Below are positions 2,711 to 19,697 of a DNA stretch of 64,000 nucleotides, piece by piece. The position numbers and the translations under genes are program-made. Source of the DNA: an uncultured virus (IMG/VR IMGVR_UViG_3300017991_000058) (Duplodnaviria; Heunggongvirae; Uroviricota; Caudoviricetes). The stretch is taken from IMG/VR virus record IMGVR_UViG_3300017991_000058. One strand, written 5' to 3'. The notes under the pieces are model-generated. The model was not told the origin of the DNA. It searched no databases and worked only from the letters and a program-made list of their open reading frames with translations. Within the stretch, counting starts at the first letter, position 1. Every line of letters starts with the position of its first letter.

Positions 2711-3412
2711 TCAGCCCTGCCGACGATGGCGTCGGAGCGGGATCGGCAGGCTGAGCTGGCGCCCGGCGGCCCGCTCCTCCGCCAGCCTGCGGGAGCGGAG
2801 CCAGTCCTGAAACAGGATGGCGACGGACGGGAACCCGGCGACGCTGGCCGGGCGGCCGTCGGGTCGGACGTACCGGACCCGCCCGCGGATGAAGTCGACT
2901 GCGGCCGCGGGGTAGCGGAGCCTGACGACTCCTCTCTCCGACCTCCGGGCGGAGACGTACCTGAACCACCAGGCCTTCCCGACCTTCGCCGGGAGGAGCG
3001 CGGCGACGAGCTCGGCCCGGCCGGAGACGACCTCGCGGACGGCCTTTGCGACCCACAGCTCCTCCGCCCTGCCGTACGGCGGGTTCATCCAGCACCGACC
3101 TCTCCACGGGAGAGACAGACCGTCGTCGTCGACGGTGAAGTACCTGCTGCAGACGTGGAGCTCAGCGCTGGCCGCGACGTCCAGGTCGAACGCTCCGTCC
3201 GCCCACAGGTCGGCGTACCGGCGGACGAGCTCGTCGGGGGACCCCCACTCCCACGTCTCGGCGGGTAGCAGGAGAGGGCCAACGCGCCGCTCTGCGCCCC
3301 CCTCAGGGCCCGGGAGAGGTCCGGGGGTGCCGGAGACCGCCCCCGGAGCGACGGGCGGCTCGAGACGGAACAGGGCCATCTGGCGTTGAAGGTCGTCGTC
3401 GCTCCAGCTCAT
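2711..3412 (-). CDS. phage N6-adenine DNA methyltransferase (Dam-like)
   Basis: WGSP, FDLDVAA, YFTVDDDGL and catalytic NPPY motif. Confidence 0.85.
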   Translation of the reverse strand: MSWSDDDLQRQMALFRLEPPVAPGAVSGTPGPLPGPEGGAERRVGPLLLPAETWEWGSPDELVRRYADLWADGAFDLDVAASAELHVCSRYFTVDDDGLSLPWRGRCWMNPPYGRAEELWVAKAVREVVSGRAELVAALLPAKVGKAWWFRYVSARRSERGVVRLRYPAAAVDFIRGRVRYVRPDGRPASVAGFPSVAILFQDWLRSRRLAEERAAGRQLSLPIPLRRHRRQG

Positions 3413-3418
3413 GGCACC

Positions 3419-4024
3419 TCACACTATCAGACCGACCTCGTCGCGGATGGCGGCGCCGAGATCGAAGCCGGGCTCGGAGCGGAACGCGTCCCCGTGCTCG
3501 GCCCACGCCACGGCCTGCGTCGCCGAGTCGTACCTGGCCGCCAGGGTCGACCGCGACCACAGTCCGGACGCCTCGAGCACGGCTCTAGCGTACCCAATGC
3601 CGCCCATAGCGACCCGGTCTCGGCCCGGAGACACCCGCCATCTGCACGTCGCCACGGCCTCCCACATCGACTCTCCGGCCCACACGACGGAGAGTCGAGA
3701 CTGAGGCGGAGCGTCCACGGTCTCGGCCATGACACTGACGACGGACACCACCTGGGGGAATCCGGACAGTGAGGCCCACCGGACGGACGCGGACAGGAAG
3801 GCCATCTCGAGCGCTCTTCGGAACCCGGCGACAACCGCGAGCGCGATCATAGGCCGCGGATCGTCCGCCGCCAGCCAGGCGGTCCGAAGGCACCCGCCGT
3901 GCCGATCGACCCACTCCGCGACGAGGCGCGGCGCGGTGCGCCCCTTGACGTGGACGAGATCGCCGCACACGGCGTCGAGCCCGCCCAGCCGCCAGACGGC
4001 GTCGATCCGATCAACGCCCGTCAC
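3419..4024 (-). CDS. hypothetical protein
   Basis: 201 aa ORF in the gene chain. Confidence 0.5.
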   Translation of the reverse strand: MTGVDRIDAVWRLGGLDAVCGDLVHVKGRTAPRLVAEWVDRHGGCLRTAWLAADDPRPMIALAVVAGFRRALEMAFLSASVRWASLSGFPQVVSVVSVMAETVDAPPQSRLSVVWAGESMWEAVATCRWRVSPGRDRVAMGGIGYARAVLEASGLWSRSTLAARYDSATQAVAWAEHGDAFRSEPGFDLGAAIRDEVGLIV

Positions 4025-4445
4025 GATCGTCCCCCGAGACTAGCTTGAACCCGGTCGTGTCGCCGGAGGCCAGCCTGAACACGGTTCCGACGCGGATCGA
4101 CCTGCTCATCCAGACGGCGACCCCGGGCCGAATCAGTACCGGATACACGACGGACTGCGGTGCCGCCGGCGGGACGTACCTGCGGCGCAGGTCCCACACG
4201 ACGGGGGTAACGGCCCGGAACAGGACGTCACCGCCGTAGGGCGAGCCTCCATCGACGTCTCCGACGAGGACGGCGACCATCGCGGCGTAGCCGTCCTCGG
4301 GTACCAGTCGACGCCGCGGCGTCCCGCCGAAGTACTCGTCGACGATCGGAGACGACGTGTAGGCCACGAGGAAGCGCCCCCCGAGACGGTACGCGGCGAC
4401 GACGTCCGCGTCGGCGTGGGCGTCCAGCAGCTCGACGACGTCCAT
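4011..4445 (-). CDS. hypothetical protein
   Basis: ATG at 4445 overlaps upstream TGA; MDVVELLDAH... 144 aa. Confidence 0.5.
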   Translation of the reverse strand: MDVVELLDAHADADVVAAYRLGGRFLVAYTSSPIVDEYFGGTPRRRLVPEDGYAAMVAVLVGDVDGGSPYGGDVLFRAVTPVVWDLRRRYVPPAAPQSVVYPVLIRPGVAVWMSRSIRVGTVFRLASGDTTGFKLVSGDDRDGR

Positions 4446-4771
4446 CAGTTCCCGGCCAGGCGCCAGAGCGCGTCTGCGTAGTCGACGACGACGTCCGCGT
4501 CGGACCTCAGCTCGTCGTACCGAGACGAGCGCCTGCGGACGACGTCGTCGATCATCAGCAGGTTCCCGGCCATTACGGCCGGGTCGCATCCCCCTCCGCC
4601 GATCTTGGCGGCGAGCGACTTCAGCCTTGAGTTGGCGGACTCGGCGAACCAACTCGACGCACCCCCGGCGACGGCCTCGCGCGTCAGCTCGTCGAACAGC
4701 TCGCCGAGGTCGACGTCCAGGGCCCCCAGCCGCCGGATGCTGTCGAGACGGTCGTGCTCGTCCCGGTCCAC
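4445..4771 (-). CDS. hypothetical protein
   Basis: 108 aa helical ORF, tight packing. Confidence 0.55.
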   Translation of the reverse strand: MDRDEHDRLDSIRRLGALDVDLGELFDELTREAVAGGASSWFAESANSRLKSLAAKIGGGGCDPAVMAGNLLMIDDVVRRRSSRYDELRSDADVVVDYADALWRLAGN

Positions 4772-4772
4772 G

Positions 4773-5198
4773 CTACGTCACCTGCCCCCCGAGTCTGACG
4801 AGAGACCCCGCGGCCGAGACGTCGCGCTCCAGGACCGCAACCGCGCCCGCGACGGGCCCCGGGATCGCCACACCCCGCTCAGGCATCAGCCGGGCGAGAC
4901 GGACGACGTACCTCCCGTGGTGGACGAGCTGGCCGCCGGACGGCTTTACGACGACGTCCGCCGTTCGTCGGCGACGAATCGTCTCGTGGGCCATCCACCG
5001 CAGGACACCGGAGGACGACTTCAGCGTGACCGGGGGCTCTCGGCAGTCGATCGGCGGCGAGCGGTCGACCCCGTCGATGTGGTCGACGATCCCGCGGATG
5101 TGCATCAGCTCGTCCGGCCAGAGCGCGTCGTCCGGAAGGGACGTCAGCCACTCGACGGTCTCGCGTATCCGCCGCACCATGTCGCCGCGGAGCGTCAC
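4773..5198 (-). CDS. hypothetical protein
   Basis: 141 aa, GTGA overlap with upstream gene. Confidence 0.5.
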   Translation of the reverse strand: MTLRGDMVRRIRETVEWLTSLPDDALWPDELMHIRGIVDHIDGVDRSPPIDCREPPVTLKSSSGVLRWMAHETIRRRRTADVVVKPSGGQLVHHGRYVVRLARLMPERGVAIPGPVAGAVAVLERDVSAAGSLVRLGGQVT

Positions 5199-5449
5199 CC
5201 CTCGGACTTGCGCTCGGCCGCGGCGGCGGCCCGCCGCTCCCTCATCATCGCGGTGTGCTCCGACCTCCGGACGGCCGATGCCCGCTCGAGCTGCTCGTGG
5301 AGCTCGCCAACCCCGGCGGCGTGGTCGAGGACGATCCGCATCCAGGTGTACATAGGCATCCCGTCCTCGGCGGCGGCCGCCCTCCAGGCGTCGAGCTCCG
5401 CCTGGCTGGCCTTGATGCTCGTCTGCGCGTCGTATCTGGACATCGACAC
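5195..5449 (-). CDS. ribbon-helix-helix-like small regulator
   Basis: TSIKASQAELDAWRAAAAEDGMPMYTWMRIVLD fits a strand-helix-helix pattern; GGAGGG RBS. Confidence 0.5.
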   Translation of the reverse strand: MSMSRYDAQTSIKASQAELDAWRAAAAEDGMPMYTWMRIVLDHAAGVGELHEQLERASAVRRSEHTAMMRERRAAAAAERKSEG

Positions 5450-5506
5450 CCCTCCGTCGGAGACGTTACTGCTCGTCCGCCCGTGAGGCGTACCGACGGA
5501 GACCGG

Positions 5507-6232
5507 TCAGCGGGAGTCCGGGTCTCTCAGAGCGAGCCACGCCGCGAAGTTGTGCCACCGCCAGACGCAGTCGACGTCGGAGAACCCGGCGGCCCGGAGC
5601 AGCTCGACGTTCCACCTGGCCGTCACAGGAACCAGGACCCCCTCGAGCGCCAGGCGCTTTCGCTCTACGTCGTCGCGGGAGTAGCCGCGCCGCTCCTTGC
5701 TCTCGAGATAGGCGTCTACCATGGCGGCGTCGAGCTCCGCGGTGTCGCCAAGCACCTTCTCGACGACGATCGCGGCGCCTCCCGGAACGGTTGACCGGTA
5801 GATGGACCGGACGATCTGGTGGCGGTATTCGATCGGCGTGAACTGCAGGACGAGGACGGCCATCGTGACCGACGCCGACACGTCCGGGTAGCCGCGGCGC
5901 AGGTCGTGGTCCAAGACGACGACGCGGCCGGACTCGATCCCCTCCGCGAACCGCTCCCTGGCGGCGGCGAGCATCGGGGCGGACACCTCGACGCCGACCA
6001 GCCTGCACGTCGAGCCGCGGACGGCCTCGAACCTGGCCAGGGCCTCGCCCCTCGCGCAGCCCAGGTCGACGACGTCCGTCCCGCCCGAGGCGTAGCGGAG
6101 AGCGAGCCCCAGAACGACGCTGCGCATGACCTCGTACTGGGGGATGGACCGCGCCAGCATGTCGTCGAAGACGCGGGTCACCTCTCCGTCGAACTCCCAC
6201 CGGTCCGGAGCATAGCCGGTGTCTCTCGTCAC
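5507..6232 (-). CDS. cmoA: carboxy-S-adenosyl-L-methionine synthase (CmoA family)
   Basis: WEFDGEVTRVFDDMLARSIPQY, DLGCARG, VLQF, PGG..VVEKV, YSRDDVERKRLALEGVL (the KR Arg equivalent to E. coli R199), C-terminal WHNF. Confidence 0.92.
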   Translation of the reverse strand: MTRDTGYAPDRWEFDGEVTRVFDDMLARSIPQYEVMRSVVLGLALRYASGGTDVVDLGCARGEALARFEAVRGSTCRLVGVEVSAPMLAAARERFAEGIESGRVVVLDHDLRRGYPDVSASVTMAVLVLQFTPIEYRHQIVRSIYRSTVPGGAAIVVEKVLGDTAELDAAMVDAYLESKERRGYSRDDVERKRLALEGVLVPVTARWNVELLRAAGFSDVDCVWRWHNFAAWLALRDPDSR

Positions 6233-7617
6233 TTCGGACCTCCGACAAGTCGCTTGAACTCCGCGGCGTAGTATCTCCGCGGGTCACCGACGGCGGCGGC
6301 CGCGGCGCCCTTCAGCCCGGCGCCGTCCTGGAACGCCAGCTTTGGCCTGTGCACGACGCGGTCCGGGAGCAGCCCGGAGTAGGCCCGCGACATGACGGCC
6401 TTCGGGCGTCCCCTACTCGCCACGGCGCTCTGGGGGAGAGACAGCGCGAACTCGACGAGACTCGTGTGGAGAAACGGAAGGCGGCACTCCACCCCGTGGG
6501 AGAGAAACACCTTGTTGCACCTGGCGAAGTTCTTCCGGTGCTGGTCCAGAAAGGTGCGCTTCCTGTACGCGTGCCAGCCGAACTTATGAACGCCGTGGTA
6601 GCTGAACCCGTAGCTGGCCATGAGCTCGTCCGCCCCCTCCCCACTGAACGTGACCTTGAACCCGTCGGCGCTCATGGATCTGGCCAGGTGGAGGCACGCC
6701 CACCCTATCTCCACCTGGGCCTTGTGGGGCATCTCGATCCGCCGGACGACATCGGAGAGGTCGTCCGCAGTCGGGGCCGGGACGGCGATCTCTCTCAGCT
6801 CCGTCCCGAGCCGGTCGGCGACCTCGCGGGCGGCCAGGAGGTCCGGGCTCTTCGGATCGCGGTACGCGACGAACGCGACGACGTCGGGAACATGAGACAC
6901 CAAGTGGGACAGGACCGAGCTCGAGTCGATCCCGCCGCTCAGGAGAGCGCACACGGGGACGTCGGAGATCGACCTCTCGGCGACCCCGGACGCGATCTCC
7001 ATCCGCATGCGCTCCGCGGCGGAGTCGAGCGTCGTCTCTGCAGGAGCCGCCGGCGCGTCGTACCATCTCTCGACGGACATCCCGCCGGAGCCGTCGATCT
7101 CGACGACCGTGCCGGGCTCGACCCACGTGGCGGCGGCCGGGGGGAGCCCGGCGGCGGCCACGGCCCTGATCTCCGATGCGAAGGCCACCCTTCCGCCCAC
7201 GCGCGCGACGTGGAGCGGAACCTCCCCGAACCTGTCCCGCGCCAGCCTGAGAGTCTCTCCGTCCGCCCACGCCACGGCGAACATGCCCTCCATCCGCGAC
7301 AGCCCGGCGACGCCCCAACGGTCCAAAACGGCTGCGACGACCTCCGTGTCCCCGTCCGTGCAGAACGACTCCCCCAGAGACTCGAGCTCGGCTCTCAGGC
7401 CGAGATAGTTCCACAGCTCTCCGTTGTAGGAGACGGTGACGTCGCCGCGCGAGAACGGCTGGTCGCTGCGAGAATCGAGGTCCAGGATCGCGAGCCTGGT
7501 GTGACCGAGCCAGAACGGCCCGACGCGGACGACTCCGATCGCGTCGGGACCCCTGTGGCGCAGCGCGGCCACGGCCGCGTCGACGGGGTCTCCGACCCCT
7601 CCGACTACCCCGCACAC
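6229..7617 (-). CDS. asnB: asparagine synthetase B-like glutamine amidotransferase / ATP-dependent amide ligase
   Basis: N-terminal MCG nucleophile, HRGPD, GHTRLAILD, YNGELWNY, DTEV, RDRFG, LLSGGIDSS PP-loop, SGEGADE, VECRLPFL. Confidence 0.9.
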   Translation of the reverse strand: MCGVVGGVGDPVDAAVAALRHRGPDAIGVVRVGPFWLGHTRLAILDLDSRSDQPFSRGDVTVSYNGELWNYLGLRAELESLGESFCTDGDTEVVAAVLDRWGVAGLSRMEGMFAVAWADGETLRLARDRFGEVPLHVARVGGRVAFASEIRAVAAAGLPPAAATWVEPGTVVEIDGSGGMSVERWYDAPAAPAETTLDSAAERMRMEIASGVAERSISDVPVCALLSGGIDSSSVLSHLVSHVPDVVAFVAYRDPKSPDLLAAREVADRLGTELREIAVPAPTADDLSDVVRRIEMPHKAQVEIGWACLHLARSMSADGFKVTFSGEGADELMASYGFSYHGVHKFGWHAYRKRTFLDQHRKNFARCNKVFLSHGVECRLPFLHTSLVEFALSLPQSAVASRGRPKAVMSRAYSGLLPDRVVHRPKLAFQDGAGLKGAAAAAVGDPRRYYAAEFKRLVGGPK

Positions 7618-8066
7618 TCGGCCGCCTCCGCCAGGAACCGCCGAGCCGCCTCGACGTTGACGGGGTTGTTCCAGAACCTGACGATCCCGGACGGGTGCGG
7701 GATGACCGCGATCTCGGCCGGCCCGTCGAGCGCGCCGGAGACCCAGACCATGAACCCGATGCGGTCGACTCTGACTCCCAGCGACTCGGCCATCCGTCTA
7801 GACGCCAGAACGACGCGCCTGCCTAGAAGCTCCATCCGAGACCGTCTCCAGGCCCTGCGGACGGCCGACTTCGGAAGGGAGTCGCCCTTGCGGCCGCCGC
7901 TCCGGCCGGGCCACTCGGACAGCAGGTTGGCCGGCTCGAACATCGCCAGAAGTTCGCCGTGGTCAACGCCTGCGATCTTGGCCAGCCGCCTTCCGCTGTC
8001 TCCGGAGAACGGTCTTGACGGGTCGGACTTCCTGCTCGGCGCCTCGCCCAGAATGACGACTCTCAT
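7605..8066 (-). CDS. uracil-DNA glycosylase superfamily protein (family 4-like, no Fe-S cysteines)
   Basis: ATG at 8066 overlaps MTase stop; ILGEAP, PFSGDSG, IPHPSG motifs. Confidence 0.75.
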   Translation of the reverse strand: MRVVILGEAPSRKSDPSRPFSGDSGRRLAKIAGVDHGELLAMFEPANLLSEWPGRSGGRKGDSLPKSAVRRAWRRSRMELLGRRVVLASRRMAESLGVRVDRIGFMVWVSGALDGPAEIAVIPHPSGIVRFWNNPVNVEAARRFLAEAAECAG

Positions 8067-9481
8067 GGCCTCGGGCTCCCGGCGAGAACGCCGGCCAGCG
8101 CCCTGGCGACGGCCATCATCATCGGCGGCGGGACGGCGCGGCCGAGGCGCTCCCACTGCTGGGAGTACGAACCGACCAGCCGGAAGTCGTCGGGGAACCC
8201 GCAGATCCGCCGCAGCTCGGCGATGGAGAACTTCCTCCGCTCCGTCGGATGGATGACCCCGGCCGCTCCCGGATTCCCGGCCGTCTGGGTCACCGTCGGG
8301 CACGGGCGGTCCGGATGGGCCCGCACGAGGTTGAAGTACTTGTCCGACTGCTCGCCCGGCTTCAGCTTCCGGCTCGCCTTGTCGATGGCGTAGCCGTCCA
8401 GAGGGGCTCCGGTCTCGACCCTGGGGTCGTCGCTCTCGACGAAGAACCTCGGGTCCTGAGCGCAGACGGCCGGGAACGGCGACTCTGGGTCCAGCCGCTG
8501 CCCCTTCGACTTGAACGGCGCCCCCATGCCGCGGACGACCGTGAGCTCGGACTGGGTCTTCGGGCGGTTGTGCGTCATCACCGTCGGGACCGGGAGGTCT
8601 ATGGACCGCTCCCCCTTTGAAGTTCCGACGGACGTCTCGATCTCGTGGCGATGGTAGCCCGCACCGCGAGCCGTTGTGACGGTCGGCGCGGGGCGGTCCG
8701 CAGCGTCGAAGTCGTAGCCCTCGAAGTACCCGTGGCCCTCCGACCTGAACCTCCCGATCCACGGGCACGCGTCTCTCAGCGAGTAGCGATATCCGAGCGG
8801 GCGGGGGAACGGAATGTCTACGTCCGGCGCGACGTCGTCTCGCAGCCCGACGAAGATCAGCCGCTTCCGGACCTGGGGGACGCCGAGCCACTGAGCGTCG
8901 AGCTCTCGAATCGCCACGCGATACCCGCACTCGACGAGGCGGCCGTAGATCTCTTTCAAATAGCCCTTCGCCTTGCCGGCCCGGAGCCCCGGGACGTTCT
9001 CCGCGACGAACGCGCGCGGTCTTATCCCGTCGACGATCCGCGCGAACTCCCAGAACAGGTCGTCGGTCCTCTGGACGGTCGAGCTGTACTTCTTCTCCTC
9101 ACCCCAGTGCTTGTCTCGCTTGCCGGCCAGAGAGAACGACGCGCACGGAGGGCTCCCCTGGACGACGTCGATCTCCCCGACGCCCATCCCGACGGCGGCG
9201 AGGATGTCGGACGGGTCGACGGAGCGGATGTCGCTCGAGTCGACGGGGCAGTCCGGGAAGTTCATCTCGTGGACGGCGCGCGCCTCGGCGACGAACTCGC
9301 TGGCCCACAGCACGCGATACCCTGCCCACTCGAACCCAAGACAGCTCCCCCCGGCCCCGGTGAACGTAGAGACGACGGTGAGTCCGTTGGTCCCGGCCGC
9401 GGCCCGGATCTCGCCCATGGACGGGATCGCGTAGGGCGGGCGCTCGTCGGAAGCGGCGGGGGCTGATTCGTCCGGCATCAC
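8063..9481 (-). CDS. C5-cytosine DNA methyltransferase fold enzyme, probable carboxymethyltransferase
   Basis: motif I FTGAGG, IV GSPPCASFS, VI ENV, VIII QVRKR, IX ELRRICGFPD; motif X is GRAV instead of GNAV. Confidence 0.9.
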   Translation of the reverse strand: MMPDESAPAASDERPPYAIPSMGEIRAAAGTNGLTVVSTFTGAGGSCLGFEWAGYRVLWASEFVAEARAVHEMNFPDCPVDSSDIRSVDPSDILAAVGMGVGEIDVVQGSPPCASFSLAGKRDKHWGEEKKYSSTVQRTDDLFWEFARIVDGIRPRAFVAENVPGLRAGKAKGYLKEIYGRLVECGYRVAIRELDAQWLGVPQVRKRLIFVGLRDDVAPDVDIPFPRPLGYRYSLRDACPWIGRFRSEGHGYFEGYDFDAADRPAPTVTTARGAGYHRHEIETSVGTSKGERSIDLPVPTVMTHNRPKTQSELTVVRGMGAPFKSKGQRLDPESPFPAVCAQDPRFFVESDDPRVETGAPLDGYAIDKASRKLKPGEQSDKYFNLVRAHPDRPCPTVTQTAGNPGAAGVIHPTERRKFSIAELRRICGFPDDFRLVGSYSQQWERLGRAVPPPMMMAVARALAGVLAGSPRP

Positions 9482-9518
9482 GGTCTCCTATGCAGACACA
9501 GTACGACAAGGGCCCCGG

Positions 9519-10700
9519 TCATCGAAAGGTCTCCAGCATGCGCCAGAAGTCCGGGTAGGACTTGGACACGCACCCGGCGTCGCGTACCGTCACGCCGGGA
9601 ACGCGGAGGCCGACGAGCCCGAAGGCCATGGCCATCCTATGGTCCCTCTCCGGGTCCAGCTCGACGCCGCCCCTGAGCGGGCCGGGCCGGATCGTCAGGC
9701 CGTCTACCCGCTCCTCGGCCCGGGCGCCCAGCTTGACGAGCTCGCGGCACAGCACGGCGATTCGGTCGCTCTCCTTGACCCGCAGGTGCTCCGCTCCGAC
9801 GATCGTCGTCTCGCCGTCGGCGAATAGAGCACAGGCGGCGACCGTCGGGGCGAGGTCCGGTGCGTCGCGAAGGTCGATCCGCCGCCCGACGCCACTGACA
9901 ATCGACTCGAGGAGCTCCGGGAAGGCGCGGTCGCCCTGCGCGGAGTCTGGGGCGACGTTCGACACCTCGACCCGCCGCCCCGTCAGGAATCCGGCCGCCA
10001 GCGGATAGCTGGCGCTCGACCAGTCCCCCTCGACTCGAAAGCGCGTCGCTCTCGGCCCGCCGGGCCAGACGCGGAATGCCCCGCCCCGCCTCTCGACGCG
10101 GACGCCGAATCTCTCCATGACGCCCAACGTCAGGTCCACATAGGGACGCGACGGAACGGAGCCGACCACCTCGATGTCGATCCCGCCGGGCAGCCCGGCA
10201 CCCATCAAGAGCAGCGCCGACAGCTCCTGGCTCGACAGCCCGGCGACGATCCTGGCGCGGACGCGTCCCCGCGAGTCGACCGCGCGGCCGTCTAGCGCCA
10301 CGGGGGGGCAGCCCGGCCCGCCCCGCTCCTCGACGTACACGCCGAGCCCGCGGAGAGCCGACAGGAGGGCGGGCATCGGACGACGACGCATGGCGAGATG
10401 CCCGTCGACAACGTAGGACCCTGTCACCACGGGTGCCAGCCCGGTGATGAACCGCACCGCCGTCCCGGCGTTCCCAAGAAGGAGCGTAATCGACGGCGCC
10501 CGGAGCCGCGCAGGCGGCCTGACGGTCCAGGTCTCCGCCTCGTCGTCGACGGAGACTCCGAGAGCGCGCAACCCCGCGACCATGGCCCGGCTGTCGTCGC
10601 AGTCCAGAGGACACTCGACGACGCACGGAGACTCGCCAAGCGCGGCCAGCACGATGGCGCGCTGCGTCACGCTCTTCGACGGCGGGACGCTGACGATCAC
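9519..10700 (-). CDS. aroA: 3-phosphoshikimate 1-carboxyvinyltransferase (EPSP synthase)
   Basis: PPSKSVTQRA, LGNAGTAVRF, RRPM, SSQ, PSRPY, EGDWSSASY, HLRVKESDRI, DHRMAM, KSYPDFW; GTG at 10700 overlaps upstream TGA. Confidence 0.93.
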   Translation of the reverse strand: MIVSVPPSKSVTQRAIVLAALGESPCVVECPLDCDDSRAMVAGLRALGVSVDDEAETWTVRPPARLRAPSITLLLGNAGTAVRFITGLAPVVTGSYVVDGHLAMRRRPMPALLSALRGLGVYVEERGGPGCPPVALDGRAVDSRGRVRARIVAGLSSQELSALLLMGAGLPGGIDIEVVGSVPSRPYVDLTLGVMERFGVRVERRGGAFRVWPGGPRATRFRVEGDWSSASYPLAAGFLTGRRVEVSNVAPDSAQGDRAFPELLESIVSGVGRRIDLRDAPDLAPTVAACALFADGETTIVGAEHLRVKESDRIAVLCRELVKLGARAEERVDGLTIRPGPLRGGVELDPERDHRMAMAFGLVGLRVPGVTVRDAGCVSKSYPDFWRMLETFR

Positions 10701-11296
10701 CTGGGCTGGCCGTCCCACTCGTAGCCGCACTTCGGGCACTGGTACTGGCACTCGGCGGTCGGGTCTATCGGGGTGAAGTCGCCCGGAGGTTCGACGGTGT
10801 TGGCCCCCGCCGAGGCAATCAGGGTCTCGGCGAGCCTATCGATGTCGTCCGCGTTGAATCCGACGCCCCTGAGCGCGGCGTCGCTCTGCTCGTTCAGGTC
10901 CGAGAGGATCGCGTGCAGCTTCTCGTCGTCCCAGCCGCCGACCTCGCCGAGCCTGTTGTGGGCGAGGATGTACGCCTCCGCCTCGAGCTCCGACTCGAAC
11001 GCGATCCCCCGCAGGACGGGAACGAGCCACTCCCCGTCCTCGTCGACGCGGATGCGCTCCGGAGGGTCCACCCCGTCGTCGCGCATCGAGATCAGCGCGT
11101 CGACCCGGCCGTGGCCCTCGACGAGCCGTCCGGTGTTCTCGTCGACGGCCACGGGGTCGTTGAACCCGAACCTGTCTGCCGAGTCGGCGATCCCGTCCTC
11201 GTCGTGGGTCTTCGGGTTGCGCGGCCACTGCACCACATCCGACAGAGGACAGTAGTCGATCCAGAGCTCACCGCTCTTCCGTGCGTCGTCAGCCAT
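10697..11296 (-). CDS. ParB/Srx-like N-terminal domain protein with C-terminal Zn ribbon
   Basis: WPRNPKTH, FGFNDPVAVD, LVEGHGRV, ILAHNRL; ends CPKCGYEW. Confidence 0.8.
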   Translation of the reverse strand: MADDARKSGELWIDYCPLSDVVQWPRNPKTHDEDGIADSADRFGFNDPVAVDENTGRLVEGHGRVDALISMRDDGVDPPERIRVDEDGEWLVPVLRGIAFESELEAEAYILAHNRLGEVGGWDDEKLHAILSDLNEQSDAALRGVGFNADDIDRLAETLIASAGANTVEPPGDFTPIDPTAECQYQCPKCGYEWDGQPR

Positions 11297-11308
11297 CTGC
11301 TCCTCCCG

Positions 11309-12952
11309 TCACGATTCGATCACGCCGTCCCGTATCGTGATCCTGGCCGCGGCGTCCAGCTCCGCGGCGAGGTCGTCCGAGTGCGTGACGACGACGACGC
11401 AGCGGTCGCTAGATACGTCCCGCAGGGCCTCGCCGACGGCGGCGATCCCGTCGTCGTCCAGCGTGTCGAACACCTCGTCGAACCACATCGTTCCAGCCAC
11501 AGTCCCGGCGCTGGCGGCCCTGACCTCGGCCAGCGCGAGGAGCATGGCCACGTCGACGCGGCGGCGCTCCCCGCCGCTCCCCGCCTTGTACGCCCGCTCT
11601 CGCGCGTCGTGGCCTATCCCCCTGACCATGAACTGGATCGTCTCGTGCGGGTTGGTCTGGTTACCGCCGCGTGCGTCCTTCCCGGGACGGAGTCGGACCC
11701 TCGCCCCGGGACACAGCCGGTCCAGCCACGCGTTCGCGACCGTCTCGAGTCCGCGGACTGCGCGGGCCACGACGTGGGTCCTGACGCCCCGCAGGCCGAG
11801 CACCTTCTCGACGACCTTCAGCTCGTCCAGCTCGGCGCCGGCGACGCGGACGTCGTGCTGCGCCGTCGCCACGTCCGCCTCGAGCGCGTCGACGACGGCC
11901 TGGACCTCGTCGGTCTTCTCCGTCCGCGCTCCGGCCCTGCGGCGCCACTCGCGGTGGACGGCGGCTCGGTCGCGCAGCTCGGTGAGCCGCTCGGTCAGGA
12001 CGTCGAGCTCGACGTCCAGCTCCTCGAGATCGGCGCTCGACGCCTCGAGCGTCTCCCGCGTCGCCGGCAGCCGCGTGGCGGCCCACTCGACCTTGTCCCT
12101 GGCGGACTGGCCCAGCCTGGACCTGGCATCGTCCGTGAGCGGCTGGCCGCAGGACGGGCAGCTGTCGAGCTCTGCGACGGACGCCAGCGATGACTCTGCC
12201 GCGGCGCGCTCCCGCTCCAGCGTGGCGATGAAGTGGGTCGCCGAGTTGATCGAGTCGCGGGCGTGCCGCCGCTCCCCCCTGGCGTCCTTCTCGTGGCGGG
12301 CGGCCTCGTCGAGCTCCCGCTGGTCGACGCCGGGAGGCTCCGGACCGACGGCCTCCCCGGCGTCGGAGAGCCGCTTCCGCTCCACTTCCAGACGGGCCTC
12401 GATCTTCCCGAGACGTCGGTCGAGGGAGCCGACCCGCTCCTTGACGGAGTGGATGTCGGCGCGGCAGGCGGTGAGTCCGCGGTCGAACACGTCCAGCCCG
12501 AGCATCCCCTCCAGCAGGCGCTTCCTCTCCCCGTCCGTGGCGACGGAGAACGTCAGCAGGTCCTGACTGGAGAACACCGACGCCCGCCGCCAGGCGTCCA
12601 TGTCTCCGACGATGGGGTCGAGCTCCTCCTGGCCCCTCGTCGCCGTCTCGAACTCCTTCAGCGCCGACGCGGACGTCCCCCACCTGACCATGTTCAGCTT
12701 CTGGCCGTCGCGGTCCCTGACGACGTTCACGCGGTCCGTCTCGACGTTGACCATGGCGACGATCCCGTCGGTCCACCACGGAGTGCCGCGGATCGTCTTG
12801 CCCCACAGCGCGGAGGCAACGGCCTCGATGATGGACGACTTCCCGGCGCCGTTCGGGCCCGTGACGACGACCACTCCGTGGTCGGGCAGGACGATGTCCG
12901 TCTCCCGATGACCGAGGAACCCGCGGGTCCTGATTCTCCGGATGTGGATCAC
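11309..12952 (-). CDS. sbcC: SbcC/Rad50 (gp46-like) ATPase
   Basis: Walker A GPNGAGKS, coiled coil with CPSC Zn hook, SGGE signature, WFDEVFDTLD Walker B/D-loop, VVTH. Confidence 0.88.
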   Translation of the reverse strand: MIHIRRIRTRGFLGHRETDIVLPDHGVVVVTGPNGAGKSSIIEAVASALWGKTIRGTPWWTDGIVAMVNVETDRVNVVRDRDGQKLNMVRWGTSASALKEFETATRGQEELDPIVGDMDAWRRASVFSSQDLLTFSVATDGERKRLLEGMLGLDVFDRGLTACRADIHSVKERVGSLDRRLGKIEARLEVERKRLSDAGEAVGPEPPGVDQRELDEAARHEKDARGERRHARDSINSATHFIATLERERAAAESSLASVAELDSCPSCGQPLTDDARSRLGQSARDKVEWAATRLPATRETLEASSADLEELDVELDVLTERLTELRDRAAVHREWRRRAGARTEKTDEVQAVVDALEADVATAQHDVRVAGAELDELKVVEKVLGLRGVRTHVVARAVRGLETVANAWLDRLCPGARVRLRPGKDARGGNQTNPHETIQFMVRGIGHDARERAYKAGSGGERRRVDVAMLLALAEVRAASAGTVAGTMWFDEVFDTLDDDGIAAVGEALRDVSSDRCVVVVTHSDDLAAELDAAARITIRDGVIES

Positions 12953-14094
12953 TACCCTATCCCCGTGAACCGCCGGGCCAGCTCTAGGACCCTGCCCCGG
13001 TCGACGCCCTTCGGCAGCTTCATCTTGCCGACGTACGCCGCCAGAGCGGCGGCGAGCGAGTCGGACGACCGCGCCGCGGCGGCGGCCTCTCGAGCGGCCT
13101 CGCTGGCGTCCTCGACGTCTATCGTCACCGCCCCTCGATGGACGACCCCCCTGTCGATGAGGATCTTCAGGTCGTCCCTTGCGTCGGCCATCTCGTCGGC
13201 CGCGGCCAGCCACTCAACGAATAGCTTCGATCCCTGAGCGCGCTCGGCGAACGCCTCCACGTCGTCGGCAGAGCGAACCTTGACGAACCTCGGTCCCGGG
13301 ATCTCCACGGACTCGACGCGCCCCCCGGAGTCGACGACGAGCATCCGCCCGCGGTCGGCGACGCCGAGGTCCCCCCACCCGGCCGGAGCCAACGCGCCGA
13401 TCTGGATCGCGCGAGCGTCTCCCAGAGAGAACGTCGCCATGTCGTGCCAGTGGCCGGCGACGACGATGTCTACGTCGCTCTCGTCGGCGATCGCCCCGAG
13501 CCCGGACGCGTCGATGGAGCTCGGGTCGTCCCGCAGGTACGACGGGCTGGAGCTGGTCGATATTCCGAGGTGGAGGACGAGGACCCGAAGGCTCCTCAGG
13601 GAGGCTTGTGACGGGTCCGCCCGATCGCCCTCCGAGTCCTCGTCCTCCGCCTCGGCGATCGCAGACCGCAGCCACGTGGCCGCCCGGCCGGACCGGTGAG
13701 GGATCAGAATGACGTCCATGTCGCCGAGCCGGTCGACGGACGGCCTGTCGACGACGGTGGACACGTATCGCAGCGGACCGAGAGCGTGGTCGCCGGGCTC
13801 GGCCGAGATCGCGTCGTGGTTGCCCGGCATCACGGTCACTGGACACCCCCTGTGGGAGGACTCCGCCAGGACGTCCTGGACGGCCGCCAGGACGCGCGGA
13901 CTCGGCGCGACGGTGTCGAACAGGTCCCCGGCAACGTAGAGACGAGCGCAGCCCCGCTCTCTCGCCTCCCAGCACGCCAGGCGGAGAGAGTCGATGGCCA
14001 GACGGCACCGCTCGTTCAGTCCGATCTCGGCCGGGCCCCCGAGCCGCTTGTGGTTCGCGACGTGGACGTCGGCGACGACGGCTACGGTCGTCAT
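12952..14094 (-). CDS. sbcD: SbcD/Mre11 (gp47-like) metallophosphoesterase nuclease
   Basis: ADVH, AGDLFD, PGNHD, GHWH motifs; GGAGG RBS before ATG 14094. Confidence 0.87.
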   Translation of the reverse strand: MTTVAVVADVHVANHKRLGGPAEIGLNERCRLAIDSLRLACWEARERGCARLYVAGDLFDTVAPSPRVLAAVQDVLAESSHRGCPVTVMPGNHDAISAEPGDHALGPLRYVSTVVDRPSVDRLGDMDVILIPHRSGRAATWLRSAIAEAEDEDSEGDRADPSQASLRSLRVLVLHLGISTSSSPSYLRDDPSSIDASGLGAIADESDVDIVVAGHWHDMATFSLGDARAIQIGALAPAGWGDLGVADRGRMLVVDSGGRVESVEIPGPRFVKVRSADDVEAFAERAQGSKLFVEWLAAADEMADARDDLKILIDRGVVHRGAVTIDVEDASEAAREAAAAARSSDSLAAALAAYVGKMKLPKGVDRGRVLELARRFTGIG

Positions 14095-14111
14095 CTCTAC
14101 CTCCAAGCTAG

Positions 14112-15038
14112 TTACTGCTCGTCCGGAGTCGCGGGGTTCGGCGACCCGCAGAGCCACGACCGGACGACCGCGACGTTGGCGGCGGACTTCCTGGCGTTTT
14201 CCTTCAGTATCTTCAGGTCCTTGCCTAGGTTCATCATGGCCCAGTCGTTGTCCCACCCGCTCTCGAAGTCGAGGAGCAGCTTCGCTTTCCGGAACGGTGC
14301 GGCCACCTTGCTCTTGGCGCACTTCACCGTCGTGTAGATCCCGGACGGGGCACCCCCGGTCTTGATCTCCGCCCCCCGCCACGCCTGCAGCCGCCACGTT
14401 GCCTGGTGCTTCAGCGAGTGGCCGCCCGGCGTCGTCTCCTTGGGACCGAACATAACGCCTATCTTCTCGCGGATCTGGTTGATGATGACGACCGCCACGC
14501 GGCGGTCCCTGGCCAGCCTGCCGAGGATCGGCAGGGACTCCGACATGAGCCGCGCCCTGACCCCGGGAGTGGACTGCGACAGCTCGGTCCCTGCGAGCGA
14601 GTCCCATACGACGACGTTCGGTCCGACCCCCTTCGGGATCGCCTCGAACAGCGTCTTCATCTCGGCAATGACCTCCTCGACGGTGGACGGCTCCCCGAGG
14701 AGGAGCTCAGACAGGTCGACCCCGAAGACGGACGCCCTGTCCAGCTCGAGCGTCTTCTCCGTCTCGATGAGCGCCGCGACCCCTCCCGCCCGCTGGGCGG
14801 CGGCGAGGAAGGCGAACCCGAGGCTCGTCTTCCCCGCCCCCTCGTCAGCGAACACCTCGCCGATCCGCCCGACTGGCAGCCCGCCGCAGGCCAGGACGTG
14901 ATAGTCGATCGGCTCGATCCCGGTCGGTACGACCTCCGTCACGGCCGACAGAGACCCGTTCGACGCGAGCCCGACGAGGCTGCCCTTCAGCTTGGCCCGG
15001 ACGCGGTCGACCGGGCGTTTCTTCGACGACTTCGACAC
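14112..15038 (-). CDS. recA: RecA/UvsX-like recombinase
   Basis: PTG..PID..L..GGLPVGRIGEV, EGAGKT, IETE, VVWDSLA, INQIREKIGVMFGPKETTPGG, KSKVAAPF. Confidence 0.88.
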   Translation of the reverse strand: MSKSSKKRPVDRVRAKLKGSLVGLASNGSLSAVTEVVPTGIEPIDYHVLACGGLPVGRIGEVFADEGAGKTSLGFAFLAAAQRAGGVAALIETEKTLELDRASVFGVDLSELLLGEPSTVEEVIAEMKTLFEAIPKGVGPNVVVWDSLAGTELSQSTPGVRARLMSESLPILGRLARDRRVAVVIINQIREKIGVMFGPKETTPGGHSLKHQATWRLQAWRGAEIKTGGAPSGIYTTVKCAKSKVAAPFRKAKLLLDFESGWDNDWAMMNLGKDLKILKENARKSAANVAVVRSWLCGSPNPATPDEQ

Positions 15039-15046
15039 GCCGCGCC

Positions 15047-15793
15047 TCAGAACGGGATGTCGTCGTCGTCGTCGAACGACCCGACGTCGTGGACGGACTC
15101 GACGTCGTCCTGAGCGGTCGCCCCGCCGCCGGCGCCGTCGTCTCCGCCCTGGACCATCGCCCGGATCTCGTCGAGCGTCGGGACCTTCGCGAGGTGGCGA
15201 AGGTTCGGCTGCTGGTCGATCCACTCGTCGTTCCCGAGAGGACTAGAGCTCCGCGCGGCTCTCACGGTGTAGCGCGTGTCGTTCTTTCCGCTCCCGGTCC
15301 GCTCGATCACGATGTCGAACCCGTCGACGGGGTGGGTGAAGTCTCCGCCGGCGTCCTCGTCGCGCCTGATGGCGACGAGCGCCTCGTGGATCATCTTCCC
15401 GAACCCGAGGATCTTGACTCCGGCGTCCTCGTCCTGCCTGTCGATGACGCAGGCGAAAACGCGCCTGCTGGCCCAGAAGTCTCGCGCCGCCTCCTGGTCC
15501 CGCGGGTTCCCGCTCGCCTTGAGCTTGTCGCCCTTCGCGCACGCCGGGCACGGGCGGCGAATCATCAGCCGCGGGCAGTTGAACACGATCGCGTCCGGGA
15601 CCCCCGGCAGGTTCAGGAAGTGCTGGAACGTGGTGACGAACGGGGTGCTCCGCCCCGCGGGCGGGGGCAGGAATCGGACGACGTTGCGCCCCACCTCCAG
15701 CCGCATGAACTGGCCGCCGGAGCGCGACAGGTCCTCGTGCTCCTGGTCGGCGGCGTCTATCTCGTAGGTGCCGTAATTCACGATGTTCGACAT
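15047..15793 (-). CDS. T4 gp32-like single-stranded DNA-binding protein
   Basis: VRFLPP, CP..CPAC Zn site, DFTHPVDGFDI...TRY, acidic tail DDDDDIPF. Confidence 0.8.
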   Translation of the reverse strand: MSNIVNYGTYEIDAADQEHEDLSRSGGQFMRLEVGRNVVRFLPPPAGRSTPFVTTFQHFLNLPGVPDAIVFNCPRLMIRRPCPACAKGDKLKASGNPRDQEAARDFWASRRVFACVIDRQDEDAGVKILGFGKMIHEALVAIRRDEDAGGDFTHPVDGFDIVIERTGSGKNDTRYTVRAARSSSPLGNDEWIDQQPNLRHLAKVPTLDEIRAMVQGGDDGAGGGATAQDDVESVHDVGSFDDDDDIPF

Positions 15794-15806
15794 GTTCTCT
15801 CTCCTT

Positions 15807-15848
15807 GCTCGTCCGGCTCGTCCGGCTTGTCCGCTTGTCCGCTTGTCC
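15807..15848 (-). repeat. five tandem GGAC(A/G)AGC octamers in the SSB gene leader
   Basis: copies at 15807, 15816, 15825, 15833, 15841 run directly into the AAGGAG RBS. Confidence 0.85.
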
Positions 15849-15885
15849 GGCCCGGAGCCGCGGCCCGGGCCCGTTCATGGTCGCC

Positions 15886-16356
15886 CTAGTCCCCTCCGAA
15901 GTCCAGGGCGGACCTCCCGGCCATCTGCTCCCGCAGGACCGGGTCGGCCGCCATCTCGATCCGGAGCTTCGCCCCGAGCGACTGGAGCATGTCCCGCTTG
16001 CAGATGATCGCGTCGACGATGCCCTTGACTCTCAGCCTGTCCGCCTCCTTCTCGATGTACACGGCGTGGGCGTCCGACACATCCTCGTCGAGCATGACGG
16101 CGGCGTTGATCTCGTCGACGGTCGGCTTCGACTTCTCGGATCTGGCGTCCTCGCGGGCCTCCAATAGCCGCCTGGCGCGCTCCGCCTCCCACTCGGCCTT
16201 CGCCACCATCGACACTCGGGTGGCATCGGCCAGCTGGGCGTTCCAGTAGGCAAGCCGCGGCGGAAGCTCGCAGTACTCCCTGTTCAGGTCCAGCGCGTCG
16301 ATGTCGACGGACTCCGCTGCGAAGTCCTCCAGATCCAGTCGCCCCTGGTTCTCCAC
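15886..16356 (-). CDS. helical protein, possible UvsY-like recombination mediator
   Basis: 156 aa all-helical, CKRDMLQSLG near C-terminus, between polymerase and SSB/RecA. Confidence 0.5.
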   Translation of the reverse strand: MENQGRLDLEDFAAESVDIDALDLNREYCELPPRLAYWNAQLADATRVSMVAKAEWEAERARRLLEAREDARSEKSKPTVDEINAAVMLDEDVSDAHAVYIEKEADRLRVKGIVDAIICKRDMLQSLGAKLRIEMAADPVLREQMAGRSALDFGGD

Positions 16357-16376
16357 AGGTCACCTCCGGTCGCCGC

Positions 16377-19663: not shown

Positions 19664-19697
19664 GTGGTCAGGTCCTCCTTGCGGCTATCGTTACTGC

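What the first reader, a model, noticed from the sequence alone, without database searches (positions are those of the whole stretch)
9519..10700. Phage-encoded EPSP synthase placed inside a DNA-modification operon
Seen: a full-length AroA with the expected substrate-binding motifs, between ParB and the MTase, with no other amino-acid biosynthesis genes in the window. Established: EPSP -> chorismate -> prephenate, and prephenate is the CmoA carboxyl donor; aro mutants lose cmo5U. Inference: an auxiliary metabolic gene recruited to supply cofactor for genome-scale modification. An alternative is a repurposed enolpyruvyl transferase acting on a base.
Basis: partly seen in the sequence, partly recalled or inferred. 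Interest (0 to 1): 0.8.

Follow-up and report, generated by a model that had tools for sequence, protein, structure and literature searches.

The report
Phage EPSP synthase in carboxymethylcytosine operon
An uncultured phage carries an intact-looking copy of the shikimate-pathway enzyme EPSP synthase inside the operon that carboxymethylates its DNA cytosines, most likely to keep up the supply of prephenate that this chemistry consumes; related phages have a chorismate mutase in the same slot.

Summary
Window 9519-10700 (minus strand) encodes a full-length EPSP synthase: TIGR01356 scores 362 bits against a cut-off of 287, the model folds as EPSPS, and all catalytic residues are kept. It lies between a ParB-like gene and a C5-methyltransferase. 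That methyltransferase is a CmoX, so the "DNA-modification operon" is the CmoA/CmoX/CmoY 5-carboxymethylcytosine system published in December 2025 (PMC12783734).

aroA overlaps the parB stop codon (GTGA). Contigs from other sequencing runs cross both aroA junctions. Its nearest cellular relatives (55-57% identity, Myxococcota-type MAGs) sit in ordinary shikimate operons. The best non-self hit among 5.8 billion proteins is 61% identical, so this is not a recent capture.

I found no second aroA-cmo linkage: 0 of 130 Cmo-bearing IMG/VR records carry an EPSPS. However, 13 of the 130 carry a small chorismate mutase, always inside the module. In 10 of those it lies between parB and cmoX, where aroA sits here.

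The precursor-supply reading is therefore supported in principle, but for aroA it rests on one phage. Why the enzyme is EPSPS rather than a mutase is unexplained. Earlier notes of this scan had already seen the chorismate-mutase add-on on other DNA; the aroA variant is new. Verdict: new variant of a known kind, interest 0.55.

The parts
10697..11296 (-). ParB-like gene, first gene of the module. Its TGA stop overlaps the aroA GTG start (GTGA).
   Evidence: phrog_620 E 4.2e-31 and phrog_723. No Pfam family at E<=1. Junction read. ParB-like genes precede cmoX in 45 of 80 and 64 of 77 related loci.
9519..10700 (-). aroA, EPSP synthase (393 aa). An alternative GTG start at 10751 gives 410 aa.
   Evidence: PF00275 312 bits. 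TIGR01356 362 bits, above the 287 cut-off. Catalytic residues kept. EPSPS fold at TM 0.90-0.92. Nested among cellular AroA of shikimate operons.
8063..9481 (-). cmoX-type DNA cytosine C5-carboxymethyltransferase. It starts 37 nt after the aroA stop, behind a GGAGA ribosome-binding site.
   Evidence: PF00145. Best PDB hit 8YF3 (SpCmoX), E 4.3e-60. GSPPC and 'ERLGRAVPP' align with SpCmoX 'ERVGRMVPP'. The defining residues are described in PMC12783734, sections 10 and 13. Junction read.
7605..8066 (-). Small protein of the UDG superfamily; 4-nt overlap with cmoX.
   Evidence: PF03167 29.8 bits. phrog_12275 E 1.6e-23. Homologues lie in 2 of 80 and 6 of 77 related modules. One public protein is fused to a CmoX homologue (P0347, PF00145+PF03167).
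6229..7617 (-). cmoY-type amide ligase of the asparagine-synthase B kind, with a glutamine amidotransferase domain. Predicted to turn the carboxymethyl group into an amide.
   Evidence: GATase_6/7 plus Asn_synthase. TIGR01536 273 bits against a cut-off of 267. The paper describes a ligase cluster with such a domain (section 13). I did not compare sequences with that cluster.
5507..6232 (-). cmoA-type carboxy-SAM synthase; 4-nt overlap with cmoY.
   Evidence: Best NCBIfam hit TIGR00740, 144 bits, below the 193 cut-off. PDB hits are CmoA only: 1im8, 4gek, 4iwn. phrog_4752 E 3e-62. 58-72% identical to a large metagenomic CmoA clade.

Best explanation
aroA is a working EPSP synthase of cellular (Myxococcota-like) origin that has become a fixed member of the phage's parB-aroA-cmoX-udgL-cmoY-cmoA operon. 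It is made together with the modification enzymes. It keeps the host's shikimate trunk pathway running (shikimate-3-phosphate + PEP -> EPSP). Host chorismate synthase and chorismate mutase can then deliver prephenate, which CmoA consumes one-for-one to make carboxy-SAM. CmoX transfers the carboxymethyl group to cytosine C5, and the AsnB-type CmoY most likely amidates it. What is shown: gene identities, operon structure, conserved active site, cellular origin, and recurrence of a prephenate-making enzyme in the same slot of related modules. What is inferred: that EPSPS is limiting in the infected host, that expression is coupled, and that the DNA is modified. Why this phage took EPSPS rather than a chorismate mutase is open. 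Possibilities are a host whose own EPSPS is weak, dead or shut off after infection, or a mutase in the unseen half of the genome.
For: (1) The enzyme is a genuine EPSPS by HMM, residues and fold. (2) The operon is tight: a GTGA overlap with parB, 37 nt to cmoX, and 4-13 nt overlaps down to cmoA. No promoter- or terminator-like site was found in 4000-14000. (3) The module is the published Cmo system, and its cofactor needs prephenate. The CmoA reaction is described in PMC6599085 (passages). That paper also shows that aroC and pheA/tyrA deletions impair cmo5U. (4) Chorismate mutase CM_2 is present in 4 of 50, 1 of 30 and 8 of 50 Cmo-bearing IMG/VR records. All 13 lie within about 0.9 kb of cmoA or cmoX. 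Ten lie between parB and cmoX (L027, L068, and 8 of 8). At least three arrangements occur, which implies repeated acquisition. (5) aroA was not recently captured: the best non-self hit is 61% identical, its tree branch is 0.49 against a median of 0.3 and is not flagged as long, and its GC3 is 0.878 against a phage mean of 0.895 (sd 0.028). (6) The same stretch is held with 0 differences in the listed pieces by contigs of four runs from four coded studies, sediment and seawater. (7) The paper itself names prephenate availability as an open question (Discussion passage). (8) Demand, by inference: 6392 GpC sites in 64 kb. If the target is GC as in SpCmoX (seen as a section heading only), that is about 25,000 cytosines, and as many prephenate molecules, per genome copy.
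Against: EPSPS was found in 0 of 130 other Cmo-bearing viral records. None of the 4 distinct viral contigs or 80 metagenome loci with more distant AroA (28-46% identity) had Cmo genes within 10 kb. A phage-size contig (128,302 bp) carrying CmoA at 68% and CmoX at 55% identity shows no AroA among the 120 best AroA hits. The linkage therefore rests on one phage. EPSPS lies two steps above prephenate, so it helps only if host AroC and a mutase work. Chorismate synthase was found in 0 of 50 Cmo records, and no mutase was found in this window. EPSPS is not the classical flux-controlling step (recalled). aroA has the most deviant codon use of the 18 genes of 300 aa or more (0.114, next 0.113), a weak hint of later arrival. 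There are no expression or chemistry data.
Confidence: 0.55

Rival explanations
1. aroA is a general auxiliary metabolic gene. It boosts aromatic amino-acid (or folate or quinone) synthesis for phage protein production. Its place in the cmo operon is only a convenient, well-expressed insertion site.
For: The enzyme is a canonical EPSPS whose product feeds all chorismate-derived pathways. aroA is not linked to cmo genes elsewhere (0 of 130). Virome papers list shikimate genes (aroQ, aroE, aroK) as putative auxiliary genes without any link to DNA modification (PMC12180181, passages).
Against: The insertion point is the slot where 10 related modules carry chorismate mutase, the enzyme that makes CmoA's co-substrate. 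The gene is translationally overlapped with parB. No other biosynthetic gene was seen in the 64 kb. No EPSPS family exists among the 38,880 PHROGs families at E<=0.001, so EPSPS is not a common phage accessory gene.
Confidence: 0.2
2. aroA is a neutral or nearly neutral passenger, picked up from a host shikimate operon by illegitimate recombination and not yet lost.
For: It is a single known occurrence. Its nearest relatives are cellular genes in aroB-aroD/E-aroA-aroK and aroD/E-aroA-aroC operons. Its codon-use distance is the highest among the long genes.
Against: The frame is intact with every invariant residue of the family. It is only 61% identical to the best non-self hit in 5.8 billion proteins, so it has diverged long without decaying. 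The start and stop overlap precisely, with no flanking scars of neighbouring host genes. The same sequence is held in four coded studies.
Confidence: 0.12
3. aroA is a repurposed enolpyruvyl transferase that acts on something other than shikimate-3-phosphate, such as a base, a nucleotide or a cofactor intermediate, and adds a new step to the hypermodification.
For: It lies inside a DNA-modification operon next to the base-modifying enzyme. PF00275 enzymes (AroA, MurA) transfer enolpyruvyl groups to different hydroxyl acceptors (established knowledge).
Against: All S3P- and PEP-binding residues are kept, and the only change (N336H) is shared with cellular relatives in shikimate operons. It scores above the aroA equivalog cut-off, and no MurA model is reported. 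The branch is not accelerated. The model superposes best on S3P-liganded closed EPSPS.
Confidence: 0.04

Closest known systems
CmoA-CmoX-CmoY 5-carboxymethylcytosine system of Synechococcus phage S-B43 (Yang et al., Nat Commun 2025, PMC12783734; SpCmoX structure 8YF3)
   Same: Same enzyme set and order: ParB-like gene, CmoX with SPPC and the Arg that binds the carboxyl group, AMP-forming amide ligase, and CmoA.
   Different: The ligase here has a glutamine amidase domain. The paper's second cluster is of this kind and was left uncharacterised. A UDG-like gene and an EPSP synthase are inserted here. The paper's main text and its 4 supplementary files hold no 'aroA', 'EPSP', 'chorismate' or 'PF00275/PF01817', and 'shikimate' occurs once, in the Discussion.
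Chorismate-mutase add-on of phage Cmo operons
   Same: A shikimate-pathway enzyme sits inside the cmo module, in 10 cases in the same parB-cmoX slot. It is presumed to feed prephenate to CmoA.
   Different: That enzyme is an AroQ mutase of about 85-100 aa that makes prephenate directly. This one is a 393-aa EPSPS two steps upstream. The mutase add-on recurs in 13 of 130 records, the EPSPS add-on in 0 of 130.
Housekeeping class I-like AroA of Myxococcota/Bradymonadales-type MAGs (P0016 = G088, P0021 = G301)
   Same: 54-57% identical. Same short form (about 395 aa, lacking a roughly 15-residue segment of E. coli AroA). Same N336H change and same invariant residues. The phage protein nests in this clade.
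   Different: The cellular genes lie in aroB-aroD/E-aroA-aroK or aroD/E-aroA..aroC operons. The phage gene has phage genes on both sides and no aro neighbour.
Phage-encoded precursor pathways for other DNA hypermodifications, such as the preQ0/7-deazaguanine genes folE-queD-queE-queC (recalled, no call)
   Same: The logic is the same: the phage carries metabolic enzymes that make the small-molecule donor for its own DNA modification.
   Different: Those phages encode the dedicated branch pathway. Here a single enzyme of a central trunk pathway is carried, and the remaining steps are left to the host.

Membership tests
EPSP synthase / AroA (EC 2.5.1.19; PF00275, TIGR01356) | Scores above the curated equivalog cut-off over the full length | tested here: met
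   TIGR01356 362.1 bits against 287.25, profile positions 2-411 of 415. PF00275 positions 7-416 of 417.
EPSP synthase / AroA (EC 2.5.1.19; PF00275, TIGR01356) | Two-domain EPSPS fold | tested here: met
   Model pLDDT 94.3, pTM 0.92. Foldseek top 30 ranks are all EPSPS, TM 0.90-0.92 to S3P-liganded forms.
EPSP synthase / AroA (EC 2.5.1.19; PF00275, TIGR01356) | S3P- and PEP-binding residues (E. coli K22, S23, R27, N94, G96, R124, S169-Q171, S197, Y200, D313, N336, K340, E341, R344, H385, R386, K411). The list is partly recalled and partly from passages of PMC10305266. | tested here: met
   All are kept in alignment A3 except N336->H, which is shared by relatives embedded in shikimate operons.
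EPSP synthase / AroA (EC 2.5.1.19; PF00275, TIGR01356) | Neighbourhood of other shikimate-pathway genes | tested here: not met
   None among 67 ORFs of the window. The nearest cellular relatives do have such neighbours. This is a contextual feature, not a catalytic one.
EPSP synthase / AroA (EC 2.5.1.19; PF00275, TIGR01356) | Catalyses S3P + PEP -> EPSP + Pi | not testable with these tools
   Needs an enzyme assay or complementation.
MurA (the other PF00275 branch) | Matches MurA family models better than AroA models | tested here: not met
   The three NCBIfam hits at E<=0.001 are all aroA or aroA fusions.
CmoA/CmoX/CmoY DNA 5-carboxymethylcytosine system (PMC12783734) | CmoX: C5-MTase with an SPPC motif and Arg in place of the motif-X Asn (SpCmoX R350) | tested here: met
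   8YF3 is the best PDB hit (206.8 bits; the next MTase scores 78.8). GSPPC and GRAVPP are aligned. Criteria from paper sections 10 and 13.
CmoA/CmoX/CmoY DNA 5-carboxymethylcytosine system (PMC12783734) | CmoA-type carboxy-SAM synthase in the same cluster | tested here: inconclusive
   TIGR00740 is the best hit but falls below its cut-off (144.2 against 193.3). The PDB hits are CmoA only. The prephenate-binding residues were not checked.
CmoA/CmoX/CmoY DNA 5-carboxymethylcytosine system (PMC12783734) | AMP-forming amide ligase (asparagine-synthetase homologue) next to CmoX | tested here: met
   Asn_synthase plus GATase_6/7. TIGR01536 is above its cut-off.
CmoA/CmoX/CmoY DNA 5-carboxymethylcytosine system (PMC12783734) | ParBc-domain (PF02195) neighbour, frequent but not obligatory | tested here: inconclusive
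   ParB-like by PHROGs, with no Pfam match at E<=1.
CmoA/CmoX/CmoY DNA 5-carboxymethylcytosine system (PMC12783734) | 5cxmC or its amide present in virion DNA | not testable with these tools
   Needs LC-MS of phage DNA.
Phage auxiliary metabolic gene | Host-type metabolic gene with phage genes on both sides of one contiguous phage genome | tested here: met
   Replication genes lie upstream and cmo/Dam genes downstream. Tail and baseplate genes are on the same strand. Both junctions are bridged by contigs of other runs.

The most novel reading that the evidence does not exclude
The enzyme no longer serves aromatic metabolism. It would be an enolpyruvyl transferase recruited into the hypermodification itself, for example placing an enolpyruvyl (carboxyvinyl) group on a hydroxyl of a modified base, a nucleotide or a cofactor intermediate. 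This phage's DNA would then carry a base not yet described. A milder novel reading is more likely, at roughly one in three. In it, parB-cmoX is a cassette slot where phages swap shikimate-pathway enzymes (mutase or EPSPS) according to which step limits prephenate in their host. That would make precursor supply, not the transferases, the bottleneck of 5cxmC hypermodification.
Probability: 0.04. Interest if true: 0.9.

Novelty: new variant of a known kind. Interest (0 to 1): 0.55.

Why it matters
The 2025 paper that discovered natural 5-carboxymethylcytosine left open where the large amount of prephenate needed for genome-wide modification comes from. Shikimate-pathway genes built into cmo operons give a direct, testable answer. 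Chorismate mutase is present in about a tenth of the records searched, and EPSP synthase in this phage. The answer is that some phages bring their own precursor supply. The aroA case adds that the bottleneck can lie upstream of chorismate. It would be a rare example of a central-pathway enzyme kept by a phage for the sake of a DNA modification cofactor. For people who want to produce 5cxmC-modified DNA in cells, it suggests that co-expressing shikimate-pathway enzymes could raise yields.

Tried and rejected
1. Close phage relatives. Megablast of 5000-20000 against 50,697 phage records gave no match. AroA tblastn there gave 14 records, all at 23-41% identity, mostly unannotated fragments or records annotated as aroA in very large 'phage' entries. 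I did not check these further.

2. AroA in IMG/VR. The single-protein and alignment scans gave only 4 distinct contigs at 30-36% identity, none with cmo genes.

They returned only distant AroA (28-46% identity), so the 59-63% relatives could not be fetched with their context.

4. A genome scan with the tail sheath, meant to find prophage relatives and a host, gave no confirmed hit. The host remains unknown. There are no tRNA genes in the window.

5. Contig-length matching. The AroA sister P0012 (ENA contig of 5,818 bp) and a CmoX homologue P0306 (Logan contig of 5,818 bp) share a length. With 120 x 120 pairs, one such coincidence is expected by chance, and the two sources differ. It is not counted as evidence.

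6. A reverse survey (which viral chorismate mutases sit by cmoA) was not possible. The mutase alignment was too divergent for the locus finder, and tblastn of one mutase against the phage collection found nothing.

7. Three isolated phages with cmoA (Afa-NA1, PaBG, vB_EamM_Y3) had no CM_2 match, 0 of 3. EPSPS was not searched in them.

8. The small ORFs downstream of cmoA (5195-5449, 4445-4771) were checked as possible mutases. They gave no Pfam or PHROG match and do not resemble AroQ by eye.

9. Sequencing runs: no RNA holder is listed, so nothing can be said about expression. The laid contigs were identical, so they gave no variants for a selection test.

10. No background rate of CM_2 in viral contigs without cmo genes was measured. 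The enrichment argument rests on position alone.

11. Of the 75 new loci of the CmoX scan, only the 50 longest were searched. The other 25, including L273 and L274, which have the same 240-nt parB-cmoX gap, were left out.
Full report
WHAT IS THERE

The window is a piece of a high-GC phage (0.67-0.72 throughout). Tail sheath, tube, baseplate and tape-measure genes and a full replication set are on the minus strand. The replication set holds a DnaB-like helicase with an intein, a primase, a family A polymerase, a gp32-like protein, RecA and Mre11/Rad50. No whole genome is held. The phage collection has no near match. Public gene calls place the same proteins on a contig of 127,578 bp, so about half of the genome was visible.

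The ORF of the finding runs on the minus strand from 10700 (GTG; an upstream GTG at 10751 is the alternative) to 9519.
- It matches PF00275 end to end (312 bits).
- It passes the curated aroA equivalog TIGR01356 (362.1 against 287.25 bits).
- Its codon-position GC is that of a real gene.
- An AlphaFold model (pLDDT 94.3) superposes on liganded EPSP synthases at TM 0.90-0.92.

THE ACTIVE SITE

I fetched E. coli aroA from the K-12 record and aligned it with the phage protein (alignment A3). The phage protein keeps K22, S23, R27, N94, G96, R124, S169, S170, Q171, S197, Y200, D313, K340, E341, R344, H385, R386 and K411.

The residue list is partly recalled. Passages of PMC10305266 name Lys22, Arg124, Gln171, Tyr200, Asp313, Lys340, Glu341, Arg344, His385 and Arg386.

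N336 is His, but so it is in all close relatives.

THE OPERON

The neighbours are not a generic methylation operon.

The C5-methyltransferase (8063-9481) has SpCmoX (8YF3) as its best solved relative by far: 206.8 bits, against 78.8 for the next enzyme. It shows GSPPC, and it has Arg in 'GRAVPP' where ordinary enzymes have Asn. These are the two marks that Yang et al. used to define DNA cytosine carboxymethyltransferases (PMC12783734, sections 10 and 13).

Downstream follow three more genes:
- a small UDG-superfamily gene (7605-8066);
- an asparagine-synthase-B-type ligase with a glutamine amidase domain (6229-7617);
- a CmoA homologue (5507-6232). Its best NCBIfam hit is TIGR00740, below the cut-off, and its PDB hits are CmoA only.

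Upstream lies a ParB-like gene (PHROGs only).

The six genes are packed tightly:
- parB and aroA share GTGA;
- cmoX starts 37 nt after aroA, behind GGAGA;
- the rest overlap by 4 to 13 nt.
No promoter- or terminator-like site was found between 4000 and 14000.

Contigs of other public runs cross both aroA junctions without a single difference (X3 piece 8931-9795; X2 piece 9677-11400). The stretch is held by runs of several coded studies from sediment and seawater. The arrangement is therefore real and stable, not a chimera.

WHERE aroA CAME FROM

Among 5.8 billion proteins, the best non-self hit is 61% identical. A second cluster member, P0248, is the same sequence.

Named relatives are 'Deltaproteobacteria', Bradymonadales and Candidatus Lernaella MAG proteins. 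Three relatives are fused to shikimate kinase (P0044, P0056, P0101).

In a sample of 401 genomes of the phylum of a Myxococcota MAG, 128 had a match at E<=1e-30. The two best were 55% and 57% identical. Their contig lengths equal those of P0016 and P0021.
- In the first, the gene lies in aroB, aroD/E, aroA, aroK.
- In the second, it lies in aroD/E, aroA, with aroC close by.

In a tree of 115 of the 120 best hits (five outside 330-460 aa were dropped), the phage protein nests in this clade. Its sister is P0012 (SH-aLRT 93). Its terminal branch is 0.49, against a median of 0.3, and is not flagged as long.

Its GC3 (0.878) is within one standard deviation of the phage mean. Its codon-use distance is the largest of the 18 long genes, but only just (0.114 against 0.113).

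So it is a bona fide housekeeping-type EPSPS, taken from a Myxococcota-like cell long enough ago to have diverged and adapted. It shows no sign of a changed active site.

IS THE LINKAGE RECURRENT?

I collected Cmo-bearing viral contigs in two ways.
- With a CmoA alignment: 310 confirmed stretches, the best 80 kept.
- With a CmoX alignment: 411 confirmed stretches, the best 80 kept, of which 75 were new.

Whole records were then searched with Pfam models. The counts were:

| Family | CmoA set, 50 longest | CmoA set, other 30 | CmoX set, 50 longest new | Total |
|---|---|---|---|---|
| EPSPS (PF00275) | 0 of 50 | 0 of 30 | 0 of 50 | 0 of 130 |
| Chorismate synthase (PF01264) | 0 of 50 | not searched | not searched | 0 of 50 |
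| Chorismate mutase CM_2 (PF01817) | 4 of 50 | 1 of 30 | 8 of 50 | 13 of 130 |

Every one of the 13 mutase genes lies inside the module.
- In L011 and L065 it lies directly after cmoA.
- In L061 it lies about 0.85 kb after cmoA.
- In L027, L068 and all 8 it lies between parB and cmoX, abutting cmoX.
By simple geometry (twice the observed distance over the contig length), each placement in the first five contigs has a chance of 7% or less.

The eight share one architecture (ParB, mutase, CmoX, and a CmoA-like protein of 26-28% identity). They should count as one lineage or a few.

Three isolated cmoA phages had no mutase.

Conversely, none of 4 viral contigs or 80 metagenome loci with distant AroA had cmo genes.

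After making the first of these counts, I found four earlier notes of this scan (e1-5965962, e1-6045566, e1-6045576, e1-6011875). They had already seen chorismate mutase joined to CmoA/CmoX in other phages.

READING

Prephenate is the co-substrate of CmoA. It is used one-for-one (PMC6599085, passages; PMC12783734). Yang et al. state that its availability needs investigation.

The enzyme that makes prephenate has repeatedly been built into cmo operons. This shows that precursor supply matters to these phages. In the window, the slot used by the mutase in ten contigs holds an EPSP synthase instead. The most economical reading is that it serves the same end from further upstream.

Demand is not trivial. 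The window has 6392 GpC sites. If the enzyme targets GC like SpCmoX (I saw this as a section heading only), a 127.6-kb genome needs about 25,000 prephenate molecules per copy (inference).

What remains unexplained is why EPSPS was chosen. It helps only if the host's chorismate synthase and mutase follow, and it is not the usual control point (recalled). Three possibilities stand:
- a host with a weak, dead or shut-off EPSPS;
- a mutase in the unseen half of the genome;
- a broader role in aromatic supply.

Because aroA-cmo linkage was found nowhere else, I put the supply reading at 0.55. I give 0.20 to a general aromatic auxiliary gene, 0.12 to a passenger and 0.04 to a new-substrate transferase.

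WHAT IS KNOWN

The Cmo system itself is published. Its main text and four supplementary files contain no mention of aroA, EPSP, chorismate or the two Pfam accessions. 'Shikimate' occurs once, in the Discussion.

Three full-text searches found no paper joining phage Cx-SAM chemistry with chorismate mutase or EPSPS. One search for EPSPS as a viral auxiliary gene found a single unrelated phage paper (search listing only).

PHROGs has no family matching this protein.

The finding is thus a new variant of a known system. The aroA add-on is new. The mutase add-on is unpublished but was already noted in this scan.

LIMITS

- Half of the genome is unseen.
- The host is unknown.
- No background rate for the mutase was measured in phages without cmo genes.
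- There are no expression or chemical data.

Noticed in passing
window 7605-8066 (-); also L040, L061, L285, L304, L305, L307, L338, L340; protein P0347: A small UDG-superfamily protein recurs inside cmo modules, in 2 of 80 and 6 of 77 loci by tblastn. It is fused to a CmoX homologue in one public protein (PF00145+PF03167, 680 aa). The Cmo paper's main text does not mention a glycosylase. Its role next to a base-flipping carboxymethyltransferase is unexplained.
   Followed up: partly
L278, L279, L312, L315, L316, L319, L329, L334 (and probably L273, L274): One family of viral contigs has the order ParB, chorismate mutase, CmoX, then a methyltransferase only 26-28% identical to the window's CmoA. 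This may be a second, divergent kind of carboxy-SAM synthase or a different donor-making enzyme.
   Followed up: no
window 20563-22389 (-) and 23851-25848 (-): Two replication helicases, one DnaB-like and one ResIII/SNF2-like, each carry Hint/intein domains (PF05203; PF07591/PF14890).
   Followed up: no
window 16377-19037 (-): The family A DNA polymerase has an N-terminal UDG-superfamily domain (residues 84-215) ahead of the 3'-5' exonuclease. With the stand-alone UDG-like gene, the phage has two such domains.
   Followed up: no
window 2711-3412 (-): A Dam-type N6-adenine methyltransferase (PF05869) lies about 2 kb downstream of cmoA, so the phage probably also carries 6mA.
   Followed up: no
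L268 (G088:C27) 5073-6821: The Deltaproteobacteria MAG whose operon aroA is 55% identical to the phage's has a second, more distant AroA (37%). That copy sits directly upstream of a CM_2 chorismate mutase. Two EPSPS paralogues in one bin may be real or may be a binning artefact.
   Followed up: no
window 5400-11400, runs X2-X5: The listed pieces of the module are identical (0 other letters) in contigs of four coded studies, sediment 2018 and seawater 2021. One X3 contig has a 3-base deletion at 9262 inside cmoX, and another has a 1-base deletion at 5635. Both are at depth under 5 and may be errors.
   Followed up: partly
proteins P0012/P0245 and P0306: The sister of the phage AroA (63% identity) and a CmoX homologue (50% identity, with GSPPC and GRAVPP) both come from contigs of 5,818 bp, though from different sources (ENA, Logan). 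If they are one contig, it would be a second aroA-cmoX pair. This could not be checked.
   Followed up: partly
window 63367-63999 (-), cut by the window end: A group 1 glycosyltransferase (PF00534, also matching the 'GT4-conflict' family) lies next to the head and tail genes.
   Followed up: no
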